Source: the human T2T-CHM13v2.0 reference genome, Homo sapiens
Reading direction: 5' to 3' (one strand)
Length of the DNA stretch: 64,000 bases
Assembly (NCBI RefSeq): GCF_009914755.1
Contig: NC_060930.1
A program made the position numbers and the translations under genes. How positions within the stretch are numbered: the first letter of the stretch is position 1; the number at the start of each line of letters is the position of its first letter. Shown in pieces: positions 20,881 to 64,000 of the stretch. The notes beneath the pieces are model-generated. The model saw only the letters and a list, made by a program, of their open reading frames with translations, did not search any database and was not told the origin of the DNA.

Positions 20881-21249
20881 ATTTTGGGCACCTGTGGGCA
20901 GGGGGGATCAAAGTGGGAGTACAGGCACAACTGTGTTTATAAGGCAAGTGGGAACTAAAACCCAGCCTTTGGTGTCTCACCAAGATGGACACAGTGGCAG
21001 GGCCCTGTATCTGCCCCTCAAGGGGGAGGTTTTTACTAATTTGCACTAAGGCCTAGTGGGGCCAGAGGGTGAAGAGTGGTGTGATTTGAAAACAAAGCAG
21101 GGCAACAGGTTTGATATTAAAAATGACCCATTTCACCCTTGATCTTCCAACTTGTCTGGAATAGAAAAACTCATGGCCAGCAGACTCCAAGCACATATCG
21201 ATATTACCCACACAAAGTTAAAAAAAAAAAAAAAGACATGAAGTAGTGA

Positions 21250-21397: not shown

Positions 21398-22421
21398 AGG
21401 ACCTGATTCTTTCAAAAGCAAAATACATTTTAATATCACTGTGACTGTGCCTTGACTTTCCTGGAGTAACAAGATTAAATTTATTATGAAATTTCAAATT
21501 AACTTTAAAGGAGGACTTGACAGCTTTTGCAGGTTGTAGGGACACCCAAGCCCATCTCACCTTTCTCTTACCTCCTGGAAGCAGCATCTTTGTTGAGGTG
21601 TGAAGAGCAAATATGGCTCATTGGTTCTTGGTGTCACCTGCTACAGGGACTCACCAGTTCTGACCTCCAAATTAGCCAGGGTGAACGCAGATGCAGGAGA
21701 TGCCGTGTGAATGCTGGGGAAGGCCATGGAAAAACACAGGCCTGAGTAGCCGACAGGCCCCAGTCAGGGAAAGAAAAAGAATGCTCCCAACAGATCAAAG
21801 CCCACAGTCTCTTAAAATGGAAATGAACATTTAAAAAAGGCCTTTCTCAAGGGAGAAATATGCAGTAAATCAGAGCTTTTGAAAGACAACTGGGGCCTGT
21901 GCCGGTTTTTGAATAACTCGTCGTTTAATAAATGTTCTATTTTTGACCCTTTAGGGAAATATACAACTCCATCTGAAACTTATGAGCCAAAATAATTTAA
22001 CTTTTTTTCCATCTCATTTTTATAAGTTTTGTGATGGAGACAAATGATCTGGAAGCTTTCTTTTTAAGGTTTTATGATGAAGCGAGGTCATTTAACAAGA
22101 GAGAAATGGTTTTCTCTGCACACCAGCTTTGACTCGGTGAGTGGCTAGTTAGTCCCAGCATCCGAAGTCTCAGGATCCACAAAGAGGAAGCTGTGCATGG
22201 AGTTTTGAGGAATTGTTCTTGGTTTTCTTTGTAAGGGCTTCATGAAAAGCATGTAAACATGCTATACTCATTGTAGATCATCTCTTCTAATGTGTGTGTA
22301 TGTGTGTGCGTGCATGTACATAGAACATTTGAAACTCTACATCGGTGACTGTACCTTGACTATATGAAACTATATGTCATGCATCCTCTGTACTGGTAAA
22401 AAGGAAGTACTTAATATATGT

Positions 22422-22607
22422 TGGAATTAAGTTGTTGGATGTTTTCCACATCTTTTCTAATCCCTAGGATCCTAGGCACACAGTTTGTCCACAATATATT
22501 CTCATTGTCTTGTTGTGCTGTTTTATCAAATCTTACCTATCTTCAACTGCCTTTGGACTGACACATACTGGACCTGAGAGATCAGCTTCCTGTCCACCAG
22601 AGGCTTG
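22422..22607 (+). repeat. Inverted repeat arm 1 (186 bp, presumed donor copy)
   Basis: Base-by-base comparison: exact reverse complement of 23783-23968. Confidence 0.97.
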
Positions 22608-23782
22608 AATTGTTAAAAATGTTACAGGCTCATTTTACCTCTGATGAGTGGGTGCCACAAAATCTCGGGAGCAGATGTCCCTCATTTACTCACATTGCTC
22701 CGTCCCATCCCTTTCTGCTGGGTCCTGAGAGCAGCCTTCTCCCTGGCACCCAGCTGGGATTCCCACTAACCCAACTCAGGTTCAAGGGCTGAGGGAATTC
22801 AGGATCTGAGGGATGGCTCAAAGACCACATGGAGTTCAGTTTTGCATGTTTTCTTTGAGTGCCAGCCAGCAAAGACCGTGGCCTCACATAATTTTTCTGC
22901 CGGGTGTGGAATAGTGCCATAGAAAGATGATTCATGAGAAGAAATTGTCAAGTTTCTGCCTGGAACTGAATGGAAAAAAATTGGTTGAAAAAAATCCCAG
23001 ACATGCACACAGAAGATACGTAGGACCAAATTTATATCTTTAGCTTTGGGAATCTACATTCATTATTTCTCTCACTTGACTTGAAAATGGGTAAAAATCT
23101 GGCCACAGTGCTCTTGTTGGGTTATAAATAAGATTTTTGTTTTTATATTAGCATCTGGCCCATAATAGTCGCTAATATTTACTTTGTGTTGCTCAGTTTA
23201 TAAGGTGTTTTTTTCCTGTGTATTTAAATTGCATATTAGACCTGAATATAGGTATTTTTCTTTTACAATAAGAAAACTAAATCTTTGTGAGAGCCACATG
23301 GACAATACCAGTGTAAGTAATTTAATCCAAGCCCTCTGCATTCTTGCAACCTTTGTTTTAGCCACAAGGTGATTCTATTTGGTGATTGCATTCCAACAGC
23401 AATTCTCTGACACCAACTGGGTGTCCTACAATTCAATTCAATACATTTTGACACTAACTATCCCTATTTAACATCAGAACCCACAAGGTAAAGGGCAAGG
23501 TCCCTAATAATACTGCCCTTACTCACATACCAGCTACAAACAGGGTCCCCAGGCTACCCTCACTTCAGTCTGACTTGGCAACAAATTTAGGGGTTCCCAC
23601 AACTCCCTCTGGCTCAAGAATTCAATAGAATGGCTTAGGAAACTCAAGTAAGCACTATACTTACTGTTACCATTTTATTATAAAGGATACAGATGAATAG
23701 CAAGAGAAAGAGATACACAGGGCAAGGCCTTGGGGGTAGAGGTGGGGTGCAGAGCTTCCATGGACTCCTTATGGAAGCCTTC

Positions 23783-23968
23783 CAAGCCTCTGGTGGACAG
23801 GAAGCTGATCTCTCAGGTCCAGTATGTGTCAGTCCAAAGGCAGTTGAAGATAGGTAAGATTTGATAAAACAGCACAACAAGACAATGAGAATATATTGTG
23901 GACAAACTGTGTGCCTAGGATCCTAGGGATTAGAAAAGATGTGGAAAACATCCAACAACTTAATTCCA
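23783..23968 (-). repeat. Inverted repeat arm 2 (186 bp, inserted in a MER21-type LTR)
   Basis: Exact reverse complement of 22422-22607. MER21-like sequence resumes on both sides. Confidence 0.97.
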
Positions 23969-24083
23969 GGTATGTTGCCTTCCCAGCACATGGATGCGTT
24001 CATAACCCAGGAACTTCTTGGAGCCTCTCTGTTTCAGCGTTTTATTAAGGTTCCATTATGCAGACATGATTTATTTAAATACC

Positions 24084-24287
24084 GGTCTTGGTGACTGAAC
24101 CCAACCTCTCTAGTCCTTCTACCTTCCCCAGAGGTTCAGAGTGGGGCTGAAATTCTAACTCTTTAATCATATGGTTGGTTTATCTGGGTCTTGGTGACTG
24201 AACCCAACCTCTAGTCCTTCTACCTTCCCCAGAGGTTCAGAGTGGGGCTGAAATTCTAACTCTTTAATCATGTGGTTGGTTTATCTG
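24084..24287. repeat. Tandem duplication, 2 x ~102 bp
   Basis: 24084-24186 vs 24187-24287 differ only by a 2-bp ct indel and one a/g substitution. Confidence 0.95.
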
Positions 24288-24480
24288 GGGACCAGCTCCC
24301 ATCCTAAAACTATCTAAGAGCCCTGTAATAAGTTACCTTATTAGCATAAACTCAGGTATGGTAGAAAGAGGCTTGTTATGAATAACAAGACAGTTCTATC
24401 ATTCAGCAAAGTCCAAGGGTTATTGAAGCTGTGTGCCAGGAACTGGGGATAATGACCAGTTATTTTCTGTATAATGTCTG

Positions 24481-24970
24481 TAGTAGGCATTCCAACTAGG
24501 GCCAACAACAACACCTTCCCTTTCTGTAGGTGCAAGCTGTCCCCCACCTCAAGAGGTGGGTTTATTTTTCCCTCCCTTGAATGTGACTTGCTTTGACTAA
24601 CAAAAGTGACATTCTAAAACTTCTGAGCCCAAGCCTTTCAAGAACTGGCAGCTTCTAATTTTTCTCTCTTGGAATGCTCCCTTTTGGGAGTCAGCTGTCA
24701 TGCTTTTAGGAAATTCAGGTTAGATGTTTGGAAGATGAGGAGCTGTATTGAGAGAGAGCCTGAGGGATGAAAGACCATCTTGGAAGTTCCCCTCTCTGCC
24801 AAGCTCCCAGCTGAATGCAGGCAGATCAGTGATGCGAAGTATACCATATGGAGTAGAAGACCATCCTAGCTGACCTAAGTCAACTTGCAGCATTGTGATA
24901 TGCCATAAATTACAGTTTTAAGCCATTACGTTTAGGCTGGTTTGTTGCACAGCAGCAGATAACTGAAACA
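24481..24970 (+). mobile_element. MaLR LTR (MLT1F/G/H-like)
   Basis: 'ccctcccttgaa...tgtgacttgctttgac' and end 'ttttaagccattacgtttaggctggtttgttgcacagcagcagataactgaaaca'. Confidence 0.8.
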
Positions 24971-56365: not shown

Positions 56366-58149
56366 TATAATATACACTGAAAATCACTGTAGGTGGCACA
56401 CTGAGAGTGTCTGGCACATGTCTGGAAGCTCAATAGATGGTTGCTACGATCATCATTTGCAGGAGATCGGACACAGGTCTGAGTCCACTGTGAACCAGCT
56501 GGAACCATTTATGATGCTCTGTGTTGCCCTTGCTCCATTTGTAAAAAGATGCCTGACACTTCTCCCATCTTTCCTTTGTGACCTCCAAATGAGATCGTTG
56601 ATTCTTTATGGGATATTCAGGAAATATTTAGTTTAATAGACTCATTGAAAATAATGGAGCTAAGATCAATTTAAAACTGTCAATTTGCTCTTTGGAGAGA
56701 GAAATTTCTGCCCCTCTTCCGTCTGCCCCAAGCTGGATTTCTTAGACTTGCTTTAAGAAAATGGTAAGTAACATTGGGACCTCCAGAAGGACAAGTTACT
56801 CGGCCTGGGCTTGGAATCTACGGCCTCTCCTCGGACTGCAGAGGCCTTTTTCTCACAAAAAAGGTCCCCCGAAGTGAGAAAGCAGATTTTCTTCTGTCCT
56901 AAAAAATGCAGTTCCAGCCTGATCCTCCCTCAGAATGGTCACTAAGAAAGCAAAATGTGTCTAATGCTAACAGAGCCCCGATTCATTGCTTCCAGAGCCT
57001 GCAGCGTTTTATACTCACTCTGCAAGCATAATCAAGGGAGTGATTCTGAACCTTGTTAATCAGAAAGGGCCCTTTAAAAATGTCATGCTGTCAATATAAA
57101 ACTTTGCTAAATTGCATTATAAATGCCAGATTCAGTCAACTAACACATTTAACACCGTTTCTTAAGTACAGTTTAGATTTTATCCATGCCAGGGAGAAAG
57201 AGAAAAATACCTCAGGAGAGCCCAGGCCTGCGGATTCATTGTGCTAAGCTCACTTCCCCCAGAGAGGGATTAGAAATATTTATTCCAAATCCAAGCTGTA
57301 CTTCTGGCATTCTTGTCAATAAGGTGTCCCCCCAACGTTGCTGGCTTTAGAACTGGATGATTCTCAGTTATGAAGGTTAGAAGGGGTGAGCCCTTTACAC
57401 TTGTTTTTTCATTAGCAGGCAATGCCTAAAGCTGTTGTTTTATACCAGAGGGGAAAGGTTTCTTGCAAGTCAAGAGCTAAACATCGTGTGCACACCTGTT
57501 AAAAATAAGACCTTATTTTTTACATCTGCAGAGTCCGAAATAGCCCTTCAATGTGAAACGACATTGTTCTTTGTTTTGGGGAGAATTCATTGTCAAGTTA
57601 ACAGAGAACTAACCTTTCTCCTCCCCTCCCACCAAATGAGGCTATTTCTACACTATTTTGACTAATTTGATTATGTCTTTTTCTCTATGATCCTGTTCAG
57701 AATAGAAAAGGTTTAATTGAAAACTTATAGCTTGAAGTTTGGCTAAACAGCACTTTAAGGATCTGAAGATGGTGACCAAACATTGTGATTTCCTATTAAA
57801 AAAAATCTTAAGATAATGAGATGATTTTTTCCGTGTTACATGCGTAAGCTTATTCTGAGATGAAAGGGTCTAAGTACACACAGCAGGATAATATTTTAAA
57901 ATATTAACCAATTTCCCCCCTTTCCTCCTGCCTGTTCTTCCTTTTACCTGTTCACCTCTTTCAAGCTAGACTGTTCCAAATTCATTATCTCAGGAAGCAG
58001 TGACCTAGGGGAAGCCTGGAGTTTTTTCCTGGCTTTTGAATTTCAAGTCTTGCCCTGACAAAAAAATGCAAAGAACTTGTAAGCATTATAAAATAGCTGG
58101 CATTTCCTGAGAACTTTCTGTGTTATACGTAACATTTAAAGCATGCTTT

Positions 58150-58151
<2 letters not shown>

Positions 58152-58194
<43 letters not shown>
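58152..58194. repeat. (TG)n microsatellite
   Basis: About 20 perfect TG units. Confidence 0.95.
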
Positions 58195-58197
<3 letters not shown>

Positions 58198-58199
58198 TT

Positions 58200-58372
58200 T
58201 TTCTCTACAACTCAGTAAGATAGGTACTCTTAATACCCCTATTTTACAGATGAGAAAACTGAGGTAGAGAGAAATGGAGTATTTTGCCCATCATAGCATC
58301 TCTGGTGAGCAGCAGAATTGGCTCACTATTCCAGCAGTGTGTCTCCAGTGCTCACATTTCAAACCACTGCAC
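58200..58372 (-). mobile_element. MIR SINE
   Basis: 'cctattttacagatgagaaaactgagg'. Confidence 0.8.
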
Positions 58373-58384
58373 CAAGCTCCTTGT

Positions 58385-58780
58385 TAATGTGCAGGAAGTT
58401 CTTGGGAATGTACTCAGTATTTCCACCTGTGAAAAGGAAGGGACTTTAGCAGCATTGGATAGGAGAAGAAGTTGGGCTCTGGGGTGATGTCAAGAAAGCC
58501 TTTGGCTGACCAGAGGAGAGATCTGAGGCTGGAGTGACCCTTCAGAGCCATCTCAAACTGGGGCAACACATTTGGGTCTTCATATTCCTGCATGGACCAG
58601 TCATTGGATGCAGGCTGCCCTGAGACAGGTATGGCTTTGGATGGAGGTTACTCTCTTCAGTTGTGGGAATTCCCATGTGGGCGCCCAGCAGAGGGCCATC
58701 TTCCAGCAGCACTCCCAGTAGCTGAGGGAGAAGTCCTTCAGTCCTCAGGCCCAATCTGGATGGCACACCAGTGTCCTAGT
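58385..58780 (-). mobile_element. ERVL LTR (LTR16-like)
   Basis: 'tgtgcaggaagttcttggga...ccacctgtg...ggagaagaagttgggct...accagtcattggatgcaggctgccc'. Confidence 0.55.
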
Positions 58781-60121
58781 ACTACAGAAAGGGGAGAAGC
58801 CAAGCGGGGGTACAATTCCTCACTTCAGCCTCATCCCTCAAGGACATCTGAGTATAAATGATGCCTCAGAGTGTGTGCCAACCCGAGATAAGAGATCTGA
58901 GCTTTTAAACTCCCTTACCCATTAGTCTTAGGCTAAACACCACCCTGGGAGTCGGGAGATTTGGATCTAAACTCCGAGACACTTCAGGCTCTCTGCGTGT
59001 GCATGTCCAAGGGTAGAGCTCAGAAGAGAGTCACAGGTGCATGCCATTAAAAGCAAATGTACACAGAGGCCAAGGGATGGGCACAAAAGGGCAGTTGAAA
59101 GAATCCACGTGATCATCTGCTCCAGCTTCTATAAACCTGAGAACATTCCCTGAACTGGAGGTAAGCAGCGAATCGGAGGAGAGAGATGAGTCGCTAAGCA
59201 AAGGCATATGCATATGCATCTGCCAAGAGAGCACTGGGTCCCAGGCAGGCTTGAGGGACAGGAGAGCAGAGGGACTCTCAGCCTCCCTTTCACGGAGAGC
59301 CTTGTGGGGAAAGGGGACTCCAGAGGGAAGAGGGCTGTGTGGGGTCTACAAGGGACCTTGTGGAGCTTGTCAGAGAGGGGTGTACCCAAAGATTCCCATG
59401 TGCCTGGGAGAGGAAGAGAGGTGGCTGGGGTGTCCTAGAGTTCTGGACACCTAGGGTGGATAGGAGCAGCAGGACAATCCTGTGAATGGAGGAGGACAGA
59501 ACATTAGAGCCACAGGGGAGGGTGCAGCCATCTGTGTGCGTGGATCTCTGAGGATGAGGCCAGGCAGTGGCACTCAGTGGATGCCAATGTGAACACAGAG
59601 CAGTGGGGACCCATATCCTGCCTGGCATCTTGGTACAGGACATCATTACCCCTGAATTCACGTGGGAGATGACGGGACCCTGAACTGACCAAGAACACAT
59701 TCAGTCACCTGTACAGATGGAGGCTGAGAATAGAAATTGAGTTCAAGGAAACTAAAGAAAGCTACATTTCTCATCCACATGCATTTATGGAATGAGTTTG
59801 CCACTGCCATAGGTAGTAACTATTAACACGATCTTGTGAAAATTTCTGAACTATATACACGATGCTTCTGATGACAGGTGTTAGCTTGGCCTGTTTTAGC
59901 TCAGCATAAGTACTGCTTTGTTGAAATTTTCTCTTTCTTACATAAAGAATGAATTAGACTCTGATACACTGTGCCAGGACTGAATCGACTGACGGAGGGA
60001 TAGATTACGCAAGTAAAACCCAGGCCCCTAAGGAAGAGAATATACTTTACGGACTTCACTTTGATTCTGTGTCAGCGGTTTTGACATCATAACCCATGTG
60101 CCCAACACATAGAACCACAGG

Positions 60122-60123
60122 GG

Positions 60124-60158
<35 letters not shown>

Positions 60159-60277
60159 GGACACTGTCTTCTGAGGCTTTTATTTCTTTTTCTTTCTTTT
60201 TTCTTCATGCTACAGTGAACTGGGAGAACAAAAAAAAAGCTAAAGAAATACATGCCCGCTTAGAGGCGTGTGTGCGA

Positions 60278-60317
<40 letters not shown>

Positions 60318-60318
60318 A
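60122..60318. repeat. (CA)n and (TG)n microsatellites in inverted orientation
   Basis: gcgc(ac)n at ~60129-60158 and (gt)n-gcgc at ~60282-60317. Confidence 0.9.
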
Positions 60319-61564
60319 CCGTGCCTTTTTCACCCAGGGTCTCCGAGCTGCAGTTTCCCTCTTGGAGCTTTTCTTGTCTATTTCAAAGCCCCTTCACAAG
60401 TTTAACACTGACAGGGAGAACAATGAAAAGTGAGCCGCAGCTTAGAAATGAACAGAAAGAAGTGACTGACTTTGGGCTACTCTGCTGGGGTAAATGGACT
60501 ATAAAATGTAATTTTAGATTAAATAGGTGTTTTATGTACAACACGATATTGATTTTGTTTCTGCAGGCAGAGGCTGAAGAATTGTGTGCCGCCCATTTAT
60601 GTGTATAACTGTGTGTGTGTGTGTGTCAGAGAACCTGGGCAGATTATGAGGGTGAGTTTTAATTTAACTTAACTGTACAGAAAGAGCTTGATGACTAATA
60701 TCTTTGGCTTTCAATTCTTCTTAGTATTGAAATAATGCCTATTCTTCCTTCACCCTAACCTGTATGCTTTTATAGCCTTTGTCAACTCTTTAAAAAGTCC
60801 CCGCTCTCTCCCCAGCACTGGTGACTGTGACATCACCCATCAGCTCTATACTCCGCTGTTCCAGCCTCACACTTTCATCTTTGTCCTTAACGGAGTGGCG
60901 AGAAAGGCCACACTAATCTTCAGAAGCAGGAACATACGGGTGCTCTTCCATCATTTTACCGCTAATATCACTTCCACCTCTCCAGAAAAAAAAATAATAA
61001 TAATAAGATGTAAAAGGTCACGTGGGATTCTTCCTCCAAATCACTGTTTGAAGGTCACCTTCAGTGATATATTGAAGAGATGTGGGAACACCCACATCCT
61101 CAAGGTGGAAGGGTCAGCAGGGCCGTAGGCACAACTGAGATAAGGGATGTTTGCCTTCACCTTCCTCCATGTGTATACTTCCTTAATCCTTGTAGCAAGT
61201 CCTGCGTGGTCCCCAAACTCAGGGCCTAATATTTTCTAGAATGTTCCATGGAGCAGAAAAAATGATCTGATCAACTCATTTACATGAATAACTTCATGCA
61301 TTTCAAGTTAAGGAAAAAACCCTGAAAGATATTTTGTAGTTGTTGGCAAGGATGAGGAGAATAGGCATTCTCTTTTATACTACTTTGTAGGGGAGAATTT
61401 GGTCTACAAAAGTCTTAAAAATTAGTCCACCCATTGATTCAGTAATTCGCTTTCTAGGACCTTATCTTAAGGGAATAATTGGAAATGTGTACTAAAATGT
61501 ATGCACTTGAATGTTCACTGTAGTATAATTTATAATGGCCACAAACTGAAAATAACCTATTGTG

Positions 61565-61745
61565 TCTGTTCTTCTTCATATAAGAACGCAAGTCATTGGA
61601 TTTAGGGCCCACCTTAAACTCAGAACAATTTCATCTCAAGATCCTTAACTAATTACGTCTGTTAATACTCTCTTTCAAATAAGGCCACAGTCTGAGGTTC
61701 CAGGGGGACATGAATTCTGGGGAGGCAACACTCAACCCAACACAG
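61565..61745 (-). mobile_element. MLT1B/C-like LTR fragment within old L1ME-like sequence
   Basis: 'gtcattggatttagggcccacc...catctcaagatccttaac...aaataaggccacagtctgaggttcc'. Confidence 0.75.
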
Positions 61746-62186
61746 GACTGAAACTGGAAAATGAAAAATTATAGGGAGTCCAAGGAATTTCTTTCCTTCC
61801 GTCTCTTGTCCCTGCTTCTCTCTAAAAATCTTCTCCAATTATCCGTATCTTAGCCAACTGTTCTGCTTCTTCTTTATCATGGGAGGATATGGCTGTTCCA
61901 TACCTCCCCAAAATGGTTTATAACTCCACAAGAAACTGGGAGTCTCTAGGCTCCAAATTTCATTTCCTAGGAAGGATAATCTTCTTTGCTGAGCTTAGTT
62001 TATGGGTTCATTCCAGGCCAATATATTTTGACCAGAAGAATCGAGCCACAGTGTTATCATATCTTTGGAGCAAAGGCTATTAATTCTCTGGTTAGCTTGT
62101 GAGCTAAGTGGACACCCAAAGAATATCTTATACACAGAGAATGGGTTAAATTATGGCACAGTCATACCATCAGAAATTACTTTGCA

Positions 62187-62573
<387 letters not shown>

Positions 62574-62581
62574 CTAATATG

Positions 62582-62588
62582 CACACAT

Positions 62589-62629
<41 letters not shown>
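62582..62629. repeat. (CATA)n/(CA)n microsatellite
   Basis: Direct reading. Confidence 0.9.
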
Positions 62630-62633
<4 letters not shown>

Positions 62634-64000
62634 TAAGGATAGAAGAATGTACACTAGAAAATTTACAGTACTATCACTAGATGATAGATTATGCATAGGC
62701 TTTAATTTTTTTGTTTTTTTCCACCAATTTACTTTTAAATCCCATTTAAAATTCTTTTAAATAGATTTGATAAAGGATTTCTAACACAAAATAGTGACTT
62801 ACCAATAGTGAAATTTAAGACATAAATTAAGTAAATTTGGAGGTAATACCATAGGGGATATTTATGGGGTTATTTGCCTAATGCACAAAGATTTCTCTTT
62901 CCCTGAATTTCAATGACACCATCTCCTGTAAACTCTGGATCCAAAGGGGTAGGCATATTCTACCATGTGGACCAGGGATGCAGGGAAACTCAATCTGCAG
63001 AGAAGAGAAATGATAATAAAACTGATGTCACAAGAGGTACAAAGACAAAACCACAGGGTCTGGACAACTCTTCAGATACGATTTAATCCCTTCCCAGATC
63101 TCTTGATATTTCTGCTCCTGGGTTCATTCCAACACTTCTTTATGTTGATAATAAATGTCTTTTTGTGTTTACATGAGCTTGATTTGATTTCTCTTTCTTG
63201 AAACCAAAGAGTTTTGACCAATACGAGACCCTTCACAGTTTCTGCAAAGCAAAACTTGCAGGTGAGCACAGAGAGGTATTTCCAGTTCTAAGGAGAGTTC
63301 AGTAAGCGAAATCCTCTGATATGAGGACCAACCTTCTGGAGACTGCTATGCCCCTGAGTGCATAAGGCACAAGCCAATGAATAAAGAAAAGTCATAAAAG
63401 TAAGCTGATGATGAGAAGGAAGAGGTGAGCAAGAGGCAGATGAAAGAGGAAGTCAGTAGAGGGGAAAGGAAGCCTAGAGGATGAGAGGGCCCTAGAATCT
63501 AGAATGTCAGTAGAAATTCCTTCAAAAGGCTCTCCTGACCCTGGGTCATATTTCATTCAGATTAGCTCACTGTTCACCTTGCCTTTTATGAAGGTCAAAT
63601 TAGTTCCAAAATTAGAGAAGCCTTTACCGACTTGACCTTCATGGCCATTAGGTTGGCCAGCATACCCTCCAGTTCCTGGTTTCTGATTTCCATTAGGTAC
63701 AGCAACCTTTTGAAGGTCCAAATACTGGGTTTCTGGAGGAGATGTTATCTCCTAATTCCACTTAGTATGGACAGCTGCAGGCTGGGCACGTGGGCTCAGT
63801 TTCCTTCACTGACCACAATCCAAACCAACATCTCACTTGTCTCACAACATCTCAACAGCTCCCAAGTTCCATTTCCCAGTTATCTCTAAGGAAACTGTAT
63901 CCCAGGACTCTTCAAAAGTCAGGCAACGCTTCTGTACGGCCTTCCAGATCCCAATGTTTTACCGTCACTGTTTAAAAATCAATACCACATTAACAGATTA

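What the first reader, a model, noticed from the sequence alone, without database searches (positions are those of the whole stretch)
22422..23968. Perfect 186-bp inverted duplication of unique DNA bracketing a 1175-bp spacer
Seen: 22422-22607 and 23783-23968 are exact reverse complements (186/186 by manual comparison). I do not recognise the arm as a known TE. Arm 2 splits a highly decayed MER21-type LTR whose halves remain collinear, so arm 2 is the derived copy and this haplotype has the ancestral spacer orientation. Inference: zero divergence means a very recent, possibly polymorphic templated insertion, or ongoing arm-to-arm gene conversion. Established: short identical inverted repeats can mediate recurrent inversions by NAHR and form stem-loops in ssDNA or RNA. 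This is a candidate flip-flop 1.2-kb inversion that short reads would largely miss.
Basis: partly seen in the sequence, partly recalled or inferred. Interest (0 to 1): 0.8.

Follow-up and report, generated by a model that had tools for sequence, protein, structure and literature searches.

The report
Nearby DNA copied backwards into LTR
A 184-base piece of unique human DNA was copied in reverse into an old retroviral-type repeat 1.2 kb away, most likely by a one-off replication or repair slip, leaving a perfect inverted repeat that could in principle flip the DNA between its arms, though nothing here shows that it does.

Summary
Window 22422-22607 and 23783-23968 are exact reverse complements (186/186) with 1175 bp between them. 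The arm occurs only at these two places in the T2T-CHM13 genome.

Arm 1 lies in single-copy DNA. Arm 2 interrupts an old interspersed repeat whose two halves are adjacent and collinear in other genomic copies. I could not verify the name MER21.

The junctions carry no poly(A) and no target-site duplication. TTCCA stands at both junctions and family copies read TCCA at the site. This implies a net insert of 184 bp with 2-nt and 5-nt microhomologies. That is the signature of a template switch or microhomology-mediated repair: a kilobase-range version of the known "3-2-1-4" event that creates inverted repeats.

Zero differences in 186 CpG-free bases only bounds the age at about 8-19 Myr, so "very recent or polymorphic" is not implied. 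The flip-flop inversion is possible: a validated 1.55-kb inversion with 140-bp repeats exists. It is untested here, and the locus is absent from a 612-region inversion catalogue. This is a new member of a known kind, of modest interest.

The parts
22422..22607 (+). Arm 1, the source copy, embedded in single-copy DNA 452 bp upstream of the annotated LINC01108 transcription start (21970, minus strand)
   Evidence: 186/186; 22150-22900 and 22850-23400 have no other genomic copy apart from arm 2. One search gives the distance to the start site taken from the hub's table.
22608..23782 (.). Spacer of 1175 bp: single-copy DNA up to about 23372, then the left part of the host repeat copy (about 23373-23782)
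   Evidence: single copy. (family matches begin at about 23373-23412 and run to 23681-23776).
23783..23968 (-). Arm 2, the derived reverse-complement copy inserted into the host repeat. The net insert is 184 bp, because 2 nt (CA) are shared with the target.
   Evidence: none of 58 family loci gives an alignment inside 23783-23965; eight family copies show a gap across the arm, six of them complete and two aligning a few bases inside it.
23780..23784 (+). Proximal junction: TTCCA, made of TTC from the repeat plus CA, which is also the first 2 nt of arm 2 (2-nt microhomology at the departure point)
23964..23968 (+). Distal junction: TTCCA, the last 5 nt of arm 2, identical to the 5 nt of the repeat that precede the insertion point (5-nt microhomology at the return point)
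   Evidence: 9 of 34 family copies read (T/C)CCA directly before GG/AG at the projected site, and 11 of 34 right-flank alignments run into the last 3-5 nt of arm 2.
23969..24478 (+). Right part of the host repeat copy, collinear with the left part
24084..24289 (+). Locus-specific tandem duplication (103 + 101 bp; 1 substitution and one 2-bp indel) 116 bp right of arm 2. It may or may not belong to the same event.
   Evidence: both copies map to one and the same stretch of other family copies (L031, L034, L036, L041, L049).

Best explanation
This is the scar of a single templated insertion in cis. While the old repeat at about 23784 was being replicated or repaired, a growing 3' end left its template just after TTCCA. 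It re-primed 1.2 kb upstream on the opposite strand using a 2-nt match (CA) and copied 184 nt of unique DNA backwards, from 22605 down to 22422. It then returned to the original template through the 5-nt match TTCCA and carried on. In the four-point notation the switch points lie in the order 3-2-1-4, the type known to create an inverted repeat, here with a much longer copied fragment and a much longer jump than the catalogued short-range events. The source stayed in place, so a perfect 186-bp inverted repeat around a 1175-bp spacer resulted. Shown: the identity, the two-copy status, arm 2 as an insertion into a pre-existing repeat, the uninverted spacer, the absence of poly(A) and of a target-site duplication, and TTCCA at both junctions. 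Inferred: the pre-insertion state of the site, the order of events, and whether the enzyme context was a stalled fork (FoSTeS/MMBIR-like) or break repair with snap-back synthesis. I see no sign of a function and take it to be a neutral structural relic of the last several million years. It now offers a substrate for arm-to-arm recombination.
For: The arms match 186/186 and the arm has only two genomic copies. Arm 1 and its surroundings are single-copy. The flanks of arm 2 belong to one family: at least 818 and 514 first-look candidates, 40 of each scored, with matches at 69-80% identity. In six family copies (L010, L027, L031, L046, L050, L059) the alignment ending at window 23646-23735 and the one starting at 23966-24050 lie in order on one strand. 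They are 27-133 nt apart there against 230-331 nt in the window, an excess of 194-221 nt. Across the arm, six of 8 family copies have only gaps; L009 and L031 align a few bases inside it. Family copies read TCCA immediately before GG at the site: 9 of 34 exactly, and 11 of 34 alignments extend into the arm's last 3-5 nt. TTCCA stands at 23780-84 and at 23964-68, and the longest A or T runs near the arm are 4 and 3. There is no residual similarity beyond the arms. Loytynoja and Goldman 2017 (PMC5453318, passages read) describe the event type '3-2-1-4' as creating an inverted repeat; with its mirror it makes up 31% of their high-confidence human-chimp events. A donor only 1.2 kb from the target in a 3.1-Gb genome argues for use of a template in cis (inference).
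Against: No outgroup or second human haplotype could be read, so the empty site is inferred only from paralogous repeat copies that are about 70% identical. 23 of the 34 copies do not read CCA at the projected site (two more, L041 and L050, end in CA there but were not counted), and the projection is rough where alignments start further in. The 2-nt departure match is weak and expected by chance in 1 of 16 cases. Published short-range template-switch scans cover tens of bases within about 100 nt, so an event of 184 nt over 1.2 kb is an extrapolation. Junctions alone cannot separate a fork-based switch from break repair.
Confidence: 0.8

Rival explanations
1. One reading: whatever its origin, the repeat is active now. 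The 1.2-kb spacer flips back and forth by non-allelic homologous recombination between the arms, and/or gene conversion keeps the arms identical, so both orientations segregate in people. This is compatible with the origin given above. The confidence is for an inverted allele at 1% or more.
For: The arms are perfect over 186 bp. Validated human inversions have flanking repeats down to 140 bp (PMC13629690, sections 4 and 13 read). HsInv0147 has 140-bp SINE repeats around a 1550-bp segment and is polymorphic at MAF 0.05 in 54 people (Supplemental Tables S1 and S3). Inversions with highly identical repeats are mostly recurrent (PMC6748972, passages).
Against: CHM13 carries the ancestral orientation. 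Table S1 of the 612-region catalogue, which merges five long-read, Strand-seq and optical-mapping studies of 195 people, has no chromosome 6 entry starting at hg38 14.10-14.34 Mb. The hg38 position of the locus is my estimate, not a lift-over. Only 6 of 319 (1.9%) inverted duplication pairs chosen from reference structure alone, with far longer arms of 1-50 kb, were polymorphic. Porubsky et al. (preprint, passages) take 200 bp as the lower limit for NAHR-type flanks, and inversions with longer flanking repeats show more recurrence. No match to the PRDM9 hotspot motif lies in the arms or spacer; the nearest of 9 matches in the window is at 20894 (motif recalled). Identity needs no conversion, since 0/186 is unremarkable for several Myr.
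Confidence: 0.08
2. Patch repair of a double-strand break by a free fragment, either a cDNA of a local transcript or a DNA fragment (class 2 templated-sequence insertion), and not by copying in cis. For example, it could be a reverse-transcribed upstream transcript of the LINC01108 promoter, a gene active in pluripotent cells.
For: There is no target-site duplication and no poly(A), and there is microhomology at the junctions. These are the features listed for class 2 events in PMC5110952 (passages). Arm 1 lies 452 bp upstream of the start of LINC01108, named linc-ES3 and said to be required for pluripotency in a review (PMC4624819, passages).
Against: The templated insertions described there derive from distant genomic regions, mapped to 18 of 24 chromosomes without an obvious preference. 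A donor 1.2 kb away on the same molecule is what copying in cis predicts. The 5-nt return match to the already-copied target is natural for a strand that goes back to its own template, and is not needed for ligating a free patch. No annotated transcript covers arm 1 (hub table).
Confidence: 0.07
3. An inversion made by staggered breaks that duplicated the 186 bp at the far breakpoint (inversion with inverted duplication), perhaps followed by re-inversion.
For: That model also gives inverted duplications of unique DNA at inversion ends (recalled from the Drosophila inversion literature, not read here).
Against: The spacer is not inverted: the left part of the host repeat, which lies inside the spacer, is collinear with the right part outside it. 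A second, exact re-inversion has to be assumed.
Confidence: 0.02
4. The 1547-bp unit is a mobile element with 186-bp terminal inverted repeats, or a foldback element.
For: It has terminal inverted repeats. A loose TATGT occurs on both sides, but it is offset by 2 nt on the right.
Against: No other copy of the arm or of the left 790 bp of the spacer exists in the genome. The right third of the 'element' is simply the left part of a repeat that continues outside it. Human cut-and-paste elements are tens of millions of years old (recalled) and would not have perfect arms.
Confidence: 0.01
5. Assembly artefact in T2T-CHM13.
For: Nothing specific. Reads could not be inspected.
Against: The insert sits cleanly inside otherwise continuous sequence with microhomology junctions, in single-copy DNA that long reads span many times over (inference).
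Confidence: 0.02

Closest known systems
Template-switch mutation of the four-point model, type 3-2-1-4 / 1-4-3-2 (Loytynoja and Goldman 2017, PMC5453318; Walker et al. 2021, PMC7954356)
   Same: [quoted passage not shown]
   Different: Scale. Those scans treat fragments of tens of bases within about 100 nt; here 184 nt were copied from 1.2 kb away. The authors state that they do not model long-range switches.
FoSTeS/MMBIR replicative rearrangements and Pol-theta type snap-back templated insertions
   Same: Microhomology at the switch points, use of a template in inverted orientation, and no target duplication. Complex events may include several switches, and a tandem duplication lies 116 bp away.
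   Different: Classical FoSTeS/MMBIR cases are kilobase-to-megabase copy-number changes. Pol-theta templated inserts are usually a few to a few tens of nucleotides (recalled; for the Pol-theta papers I saw only the listing). This event lies between the two ranges.
Polymorphic inversions flanked by inverted repeats, e.g. HsInv0147 (PMC13629690)
   Same: Nearly the same geometry: 140-bp repeats around 1550 bp there against 186-bp repeats around 1175 bp here. HsInv0147 is polymorphic.
   Different: Its repeats are two SINE copies, not a duplication of unique DNA. No second orientation is known for our locus, and it is not in that catalogue.
Templated sequence insertion polymorphisms, class 2 (PMC5110952)
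   Same: An insert copied from elsewhere in the genome, with no target-site duplication, no poly(A), and end-joining-like junctions.
   Different: Their donors are distant and thought to pass through RNA. Here the donor is 1.2 kb away in cis, and polymorphism is unknown.
L1 twin-priming inversions, the main class of human inversions under 2 kb (Porubsky et al. preprint)
   Same: Size class: an inverted piece under 2 kb.
   Different: No L1 sequence, no poly(A) and no target-site duplication. The arm is unique DNA.

Membership tests
Templated inverted insertion by template switch (four-point 3-2-1-4; FoSTeS/MMBIR-like) | The insert is the reverse complement of sequence nearby on the same molecule, and the source is retained | tested here: met
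   186/186, both copies present, 1175 bp apart, and no third copy.
Templated inverted insertion by template switch (four-point 3-2-1-4; FoSTeS/MMBIR-like) | One copy interrupts sequence that is otherwise continuous (a derived insertion) | tested here: met
   other copies of the host repeat are continuous across the site. The window has 194-221 nt more there than six other copies do.
Templated inverted insertion by template switch (four-point 3-2-1-4; FoSTeS/MMBIR-like) | Microhomology at the switch points, with no target-site duplication and no poly(A) | tested here: met
   TTCCA at both junctions, A/T runs of at most 4; family copies read TCCA at the site (9 of 34). The pre-insertion state is inferred from paralogues, not seen.
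Templated inverted insertion by template switch (four-point 3-2-1-4; FoSTeS/MMBIR-like) | An empty site in an outgroup or another haplotype | not testable with these tools
   Only T2T-CHM13 is held. A scan of prokaryote genome contigs for stray human sequence gave 0 hits.
NAHR (inverted-repeat-mediated) recurrent inversion | Highly identical inverted repeats at both ends of the segment | tested here: met
   The length of 186 bp is above the smallest validated case (140 bp) and below the 200-bp criterion.
NAHR (inverted-repeat-mediated) recurrent inversion | Both orientations observed | not testable with these tools
   One haplotype only, in the ancestral orientation. The locus is not listed among 612 candidate regions.
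Cut-and-paste or foldback transposon with terminal inverted repeats | Multiple copies in the genome | tested here: not met
Cut-and-paste or foldback transposon with terminal inverted repeats | A target-site duplication flanking the whole unit | tested here: not met
   the flanks are TATATGT on the left and GGTATGT on the right, with no adjacent direct repeat.
L1-mediated insertion (twin priming, class 1 templated insertion) | Poly(A) tail, a target-site duplication of at least 5 bp, and a T-rich nick site | tested here: not met
   The TTCCA at both junctions is also present in the donor, so it is microhomology and not a duplication of the target.
Inversion with inverted duplication (staggered breaks) | The segment between the copies is inverted relative to the ancestral order | tested here: not met
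   the two parts of the host repeat are collinear across arm 2.
   No repeat library is on hand. Shown only: an interspersed family with hundreds of candidates or more, with matches at 69-80% identity, spanning about 820 bp of the window once the two local duplications are set aside.
Known structured RNA gene | A match to an Rfam family at its gathering score | tested here: not met
   in 21500-24800 there are only two sub-threshold matches (18.4 against 40 bits, and 14.9 against 65 bits).

The most novel reading that the evidence does not exclude
The inverted repeat is a human-lineage template-switch product that now acts as a toggle. The arms recombine, the 1.2-kb segment lying 0.6-1.8 kb upstream of the start of the pluripotency lncRNA LINC01108 exists in both orientations in people, and conversion keeps the arms identical. 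Read-through transcripts would carry a perfect 186-bp double-stranded stem (all 186 pairs form in the predicted fold). It would be a small recurrent inversion that current catalogues have missed, created de novo from unique DNA and not from transposon copies.
Probability: 0.06. Interest if true: 0.55.

Novelty: new member of a known kind. Interest (0 to 1): 0.3.

Why it matters
This is a clean, fully resolved example of how a long perfect inverted repeat can arise in one step from unique DNA. The donor, the target, both junctions and their microhomologies are all readable. The copied fragment (184 nt) and the jump (1.2 kb) are far larger than those scanned for in studies of short-range template switching. 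Such events create new substrates for small inversions and for long RNA or DNA hairpins, and alignment-based variant callers handle them poorly. For this particular locus nothing suggests a function. Its value is as a worked case and as a cheap target for a look-up in pangenome and ape assemblies.

Tried and rejected
- **Short flank search:** a search of the genome with only the 122 bp right of arm 2 found one other copy. It was too short for the first-look filter, so I used the loci instead.
- **Independent human haplotype:** I scanned prokaryote genome contigs for stray human sequence carrying the arm, in the hope of an independent haplotype. There were 0 hits.
- **Rfam scan:** nothing reached a gathering score in 21500-24800.
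- **PRDM9 hotspot motif:** none lies in the arms or spacer.
- **Rejected origins:** transposon, L1-mediated insertion and staggered-break inversion were each considered and rejected on tested features (see Membership tests).
- **One event or two:** I could not decide whether the neighbouring tandem duplication arose in the same event. With 0/186 differences in the arms and 1 substitution plus 1 indel in about 101 bp of the duplication, both one event and two events fit.
- **Supplements not opened:** I did not open those of Ebert 2021, Audano 2019 or the pangenome papers. A 184-bp insertion or deletion call at this locus could be listed there.

Full report
**Observation.**
The window carries a perfect inverted duplication. 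Positions 22422-22607 are the exact reverse complement of 23783-23968 (186 of 186), with 1175 bp between them (repeat finder; string comparison).

Similarity stops dead at all four ends. The next 30, 60 and 100 bases match at 6/30, 17/60 and 28/100 on the inner side, and at 5/30, 13/60 and 21/100 on the outer side, which is the random level. So the duplicated block was never longer than it is now.

In the whole window, 33 inverted pairs of at least 40 nt lie within 10 kb of each other, and the 25 longest are listed. This pair is the longest and the only perfect one listed. Of the other 24, 23 are microsatellite matches and one (I4) is a non-microsatellite match; all 24 are 41-65 nt long and 75-95% complementary. 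The arm has 41% G+C and not a single CpG.

**Copy number.**
The assembly that holds the window (T2T-CHM13, 3.1 Gb) can be searched.
- The arm gives two matches, both at 100%, and they are the two arms.
- A 751-bp query centred on arm 1, run at E<=10, finds only itself, arm 2 and a 40-nt match to the left flank on another chromosome.
- The left 550 bp of the spacer is single-copy as well.

The tool warns that only the best candidates are scored. Even so, a multi-copy element with these arms would have shown up, so the arm is unique DNA and not the terminal repeat of a mobile element.

**Which arm is the copy.**
The sequence on both sides of arm 2 belongs to one old interspersed family.
- The 403 bp to its left give at least 818 first-look candidates, of which 40 were scored, at 69-78% identity.
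- The 432 bp to its right give at least 514 candidates, of which 40 were scored, at 72-80% identity.

I compared window 23201-24600 with 58 fetched family loci. No alignment fell inside 23783-23965. In six loci (L010, L027, L031, L046, L050, L059), an alignment ending at window 23646-23735 and another starting at 23966-24050 lie in order on one strand. They are 27-133 nt apart in those copies but 230-331 nt apart in the window, an excess of 194-221 nt.

A multiple alignment with eight copies shows a gap across the arm: six copies have no base there, and L009 and L031 align a few bases inside it.

Arm 2 is therefore an insertion into a repeat that was already there, and arm 1 is the donor. The left part of that repeat (about 23373-23782), which lies inside the spacer, is still collinear with the right part (23969 to about 24478). 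This haplotype therefore has the ancestral spacer orientation.

I cannot confirm the name MER21, because no repeat library is available. The family's span here is about 820 bp once the local duplications are set aside, which fits my recollection of such LTRs and nothing more.

**Junctions.**
The window reads ...GCCTTC, then the arm beginning CA..., then ...AATTCCA at the arm's end, then GGTATG. The word TTCCA stands at 23780-23784 and again at 23964-23968.

Of 34 family copies examined at the projected site, 9 read (T/C)CCA directly before GG or AG (L018, L025, L031, L032, L036, L040, L045, L052, L059). In 11 of the 34, the local alignment of the right flank runs into the last 3-5 nt of the arm. 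The remaining copies read otherwise or are projected too roughly to say.

So the repeat most probably had TTCCA once, directly before GG. On that reading:
- the net insert is 184 bp;
- the first 2 nt of the '186' (CA) are shared by donor and target;
- the last 5 nt of the donor stretch are identical to the 5 nt of the target that precede the break.

There is no poly(A), no T-rich nick site and no true target-site duplication, since the TTCCA is in the donor too.

**Mechanism.**
This is the pattern expected when a growing 3' end leaves its template, primes on a 2-nt match on the opposite strand 1.2 kb upstream, copies 184 nt backwards, and returns through a 5-nt match to the template it had left.

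In the four-point description of Loytynoja and Goldman the switch points fall in the order 3 (22422), 2 (22605), 1 (23784), 4 (23969). Their '3-2-1-4' type is said to create an inverted repeat, and with its mirror it makes up 31% of their high-confidence human-chimp events (PMC5453318, passages read).

Those scans, and the great-ape scan of Walker et al., look only for short fragments within about 100 nt (PMC7954356, passages). The present event is a kilobase-range member of the same kind.

The junctions cannot tell whether the context was a stalled fork (FoSTeS/MMBIR-like) or resected-break repair with snap-back synthesis. I lean towards a strand that returned to its own intact template, because the return match lies on target sequence that had already been copied. 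That step is inference.

**Age.**
The numbers do not require that.

I used 0.43-1.0 x 10^-9 substitutions per base per year (values recalled, not from a call). Two 186-bp copies then collect 0.16-0.37 differences per million years.
- The chance of no difference is 0.09-0.35 after 6.5 Myr.
- The 95% upper bound on the age is 8-19 Myr.
- The lack of CpG in the arm pushes the bound further up.

The host repeat is far older, since its copies are about 70% alike. All one can say is that the insertion is young on the scale of the repeat. It could be anything from polymorphic in humans to shared among great apes.

**Does it flip?**
Only one haplotype can be read here, so the central proposal stays untested. 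The literature gives both encouragement and caution.

Encouragement:
- The ONT study of Moreira-Pinhal et al. (PMC13629690; outline, sections 4 and 13, passages and Supplemental Tables searched) includes validated inversions with flanking repeats down to 140 bp.
- Its HsInv0147 has 140-bp SINE repeats around a 1550-bp segment and is polymorphic with MAF 0.05 in 54 people. That geometry is almost the same as ours.

Caution:
- Its Table S1 of 612 candidate regions merges calls from five long-read, Strand-seq and optical-mapping studies of 195 people. It has no chromosome 6 entry starting between 14.10 and 14.34 Mb of hg38. I had no lift-over and searched that range to allow for the offset between assemblies.
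- Of 319 inverted duplication pairs chosen only from reference structure, with arms of 1-50 kb, six (1.9%) were polymorphic.
- Porubsky et al. (preprint, passages) use 200 bp as the lower limit for NAHR-type flanks and find recurrence enriched for longer repeats.
- Giner-Delgado et al. (PMC6748972, passages) report NAHR inversions with repeats of 654 bp to 24.2 kb.
- No match to the recalled PRDM9 motif lies in the arms or spacer.

I put the chance of an inverted allele at 1% or more at under one in ten.

**Hairpin potential.**
Folded as one strand, the 1547-nt unit pairs all 186 arm positions with each other, both as RNA and as DNA. The RNA duplex energy of the arms is -362.8 kcal/mol. This follows trivially from the identity.

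No annotated transcript crosses both arms. LINC01108 starts at 21970 on the minus strand, 452 bp to the left of arm 1, and runs away from the repeat (hub table). With a 1.2-kb spacer, cruciform or lagging-strand hairpin formation is expected to be rare (recalled from work on inverted Alu pairs, not read here). No Rfam family matches at its gathering score.

**Surroundings.**
LINC01108 is called linc-ES3 and said to be required for pluripotency in a review (PMC4624819, passages). That gives the novel reading some colour but no evidence.

A second local duplication lies 116 bp to the right of arm 2. It is a tandem repeat at 24084-24289, of 103 + 101 bp, with one substitution and one 2-bp indel. 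Both copies map to one and the same stretch of other family members (L031, L034, L036, L041, L049). It could be a further switch of the same replicative event or an independent slip. The divergence data fit either.

**Verdict.**
The feature is best explained as a one-off templated inverted insertion in cis with microhomology at both switch points. That makes it a new, unusually long-range member of a known kind of mutation, with no sign of function. The inference of recency is overstated, and the inversion toggle remains a low-probability hypothesis that is cheap to test in pangenome and ape assemblies.

Noticed in passing
window 24084-24289: A tandem duplication of a 101-103-bp unit (two copies, one A/G substitution, one 2-bp CT indel) inside the same old repeat, 116 bp right of arm 2. 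Other family copies have the unit once, so it is specific to this locus. It could belong to the same multi-switch event as arm 2.
   Followed up: partly
window 21970 (LINC01108 start, minus strand) relative to 22422-23968: The inverted repeat occupies the region 452-1998 bp upstream of the annotated start of LINC01108, which a review calls linc-ES3 and describes as required for pluripotency (PMC4624819). No annotated transcript or RefSeq functional element listed by the hub overlaps the repeat.
   Followed up: partly
window, whole (e.g. 4781, 5043, 13482, 15004, 20894, 29214, 33267, 39537, 57915): The degenerate 13-mer recalled as the PRDM9 hotspot motif occurs 9 times in the window, against 1.84 expected from shuffles (0 of 100 shuffles reach 9). 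None lies in the repeat. Several are probably inside Alu-type repeats.
   Followed up: no
L009 (G000:C1:192409310-192412707), about 1800-2010: This other copy of the host repeat family carries its own local tandem duplication at almost the same place where the window copy was interrupted. This may hint that this part of the family is prone to slippage.
   Followed up: no
L048 and L057, just left of the projected site: Two other family copies carry what look like Alu-type insertions within about 60 nt of the equivalent site (context lines).
   Followed up: no
window 58140-62650: Several long (TG)n/(CA)n microsatellites in opposite orientation account for nearly all other 'inverted repeats' in the window.
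   Followed up: no
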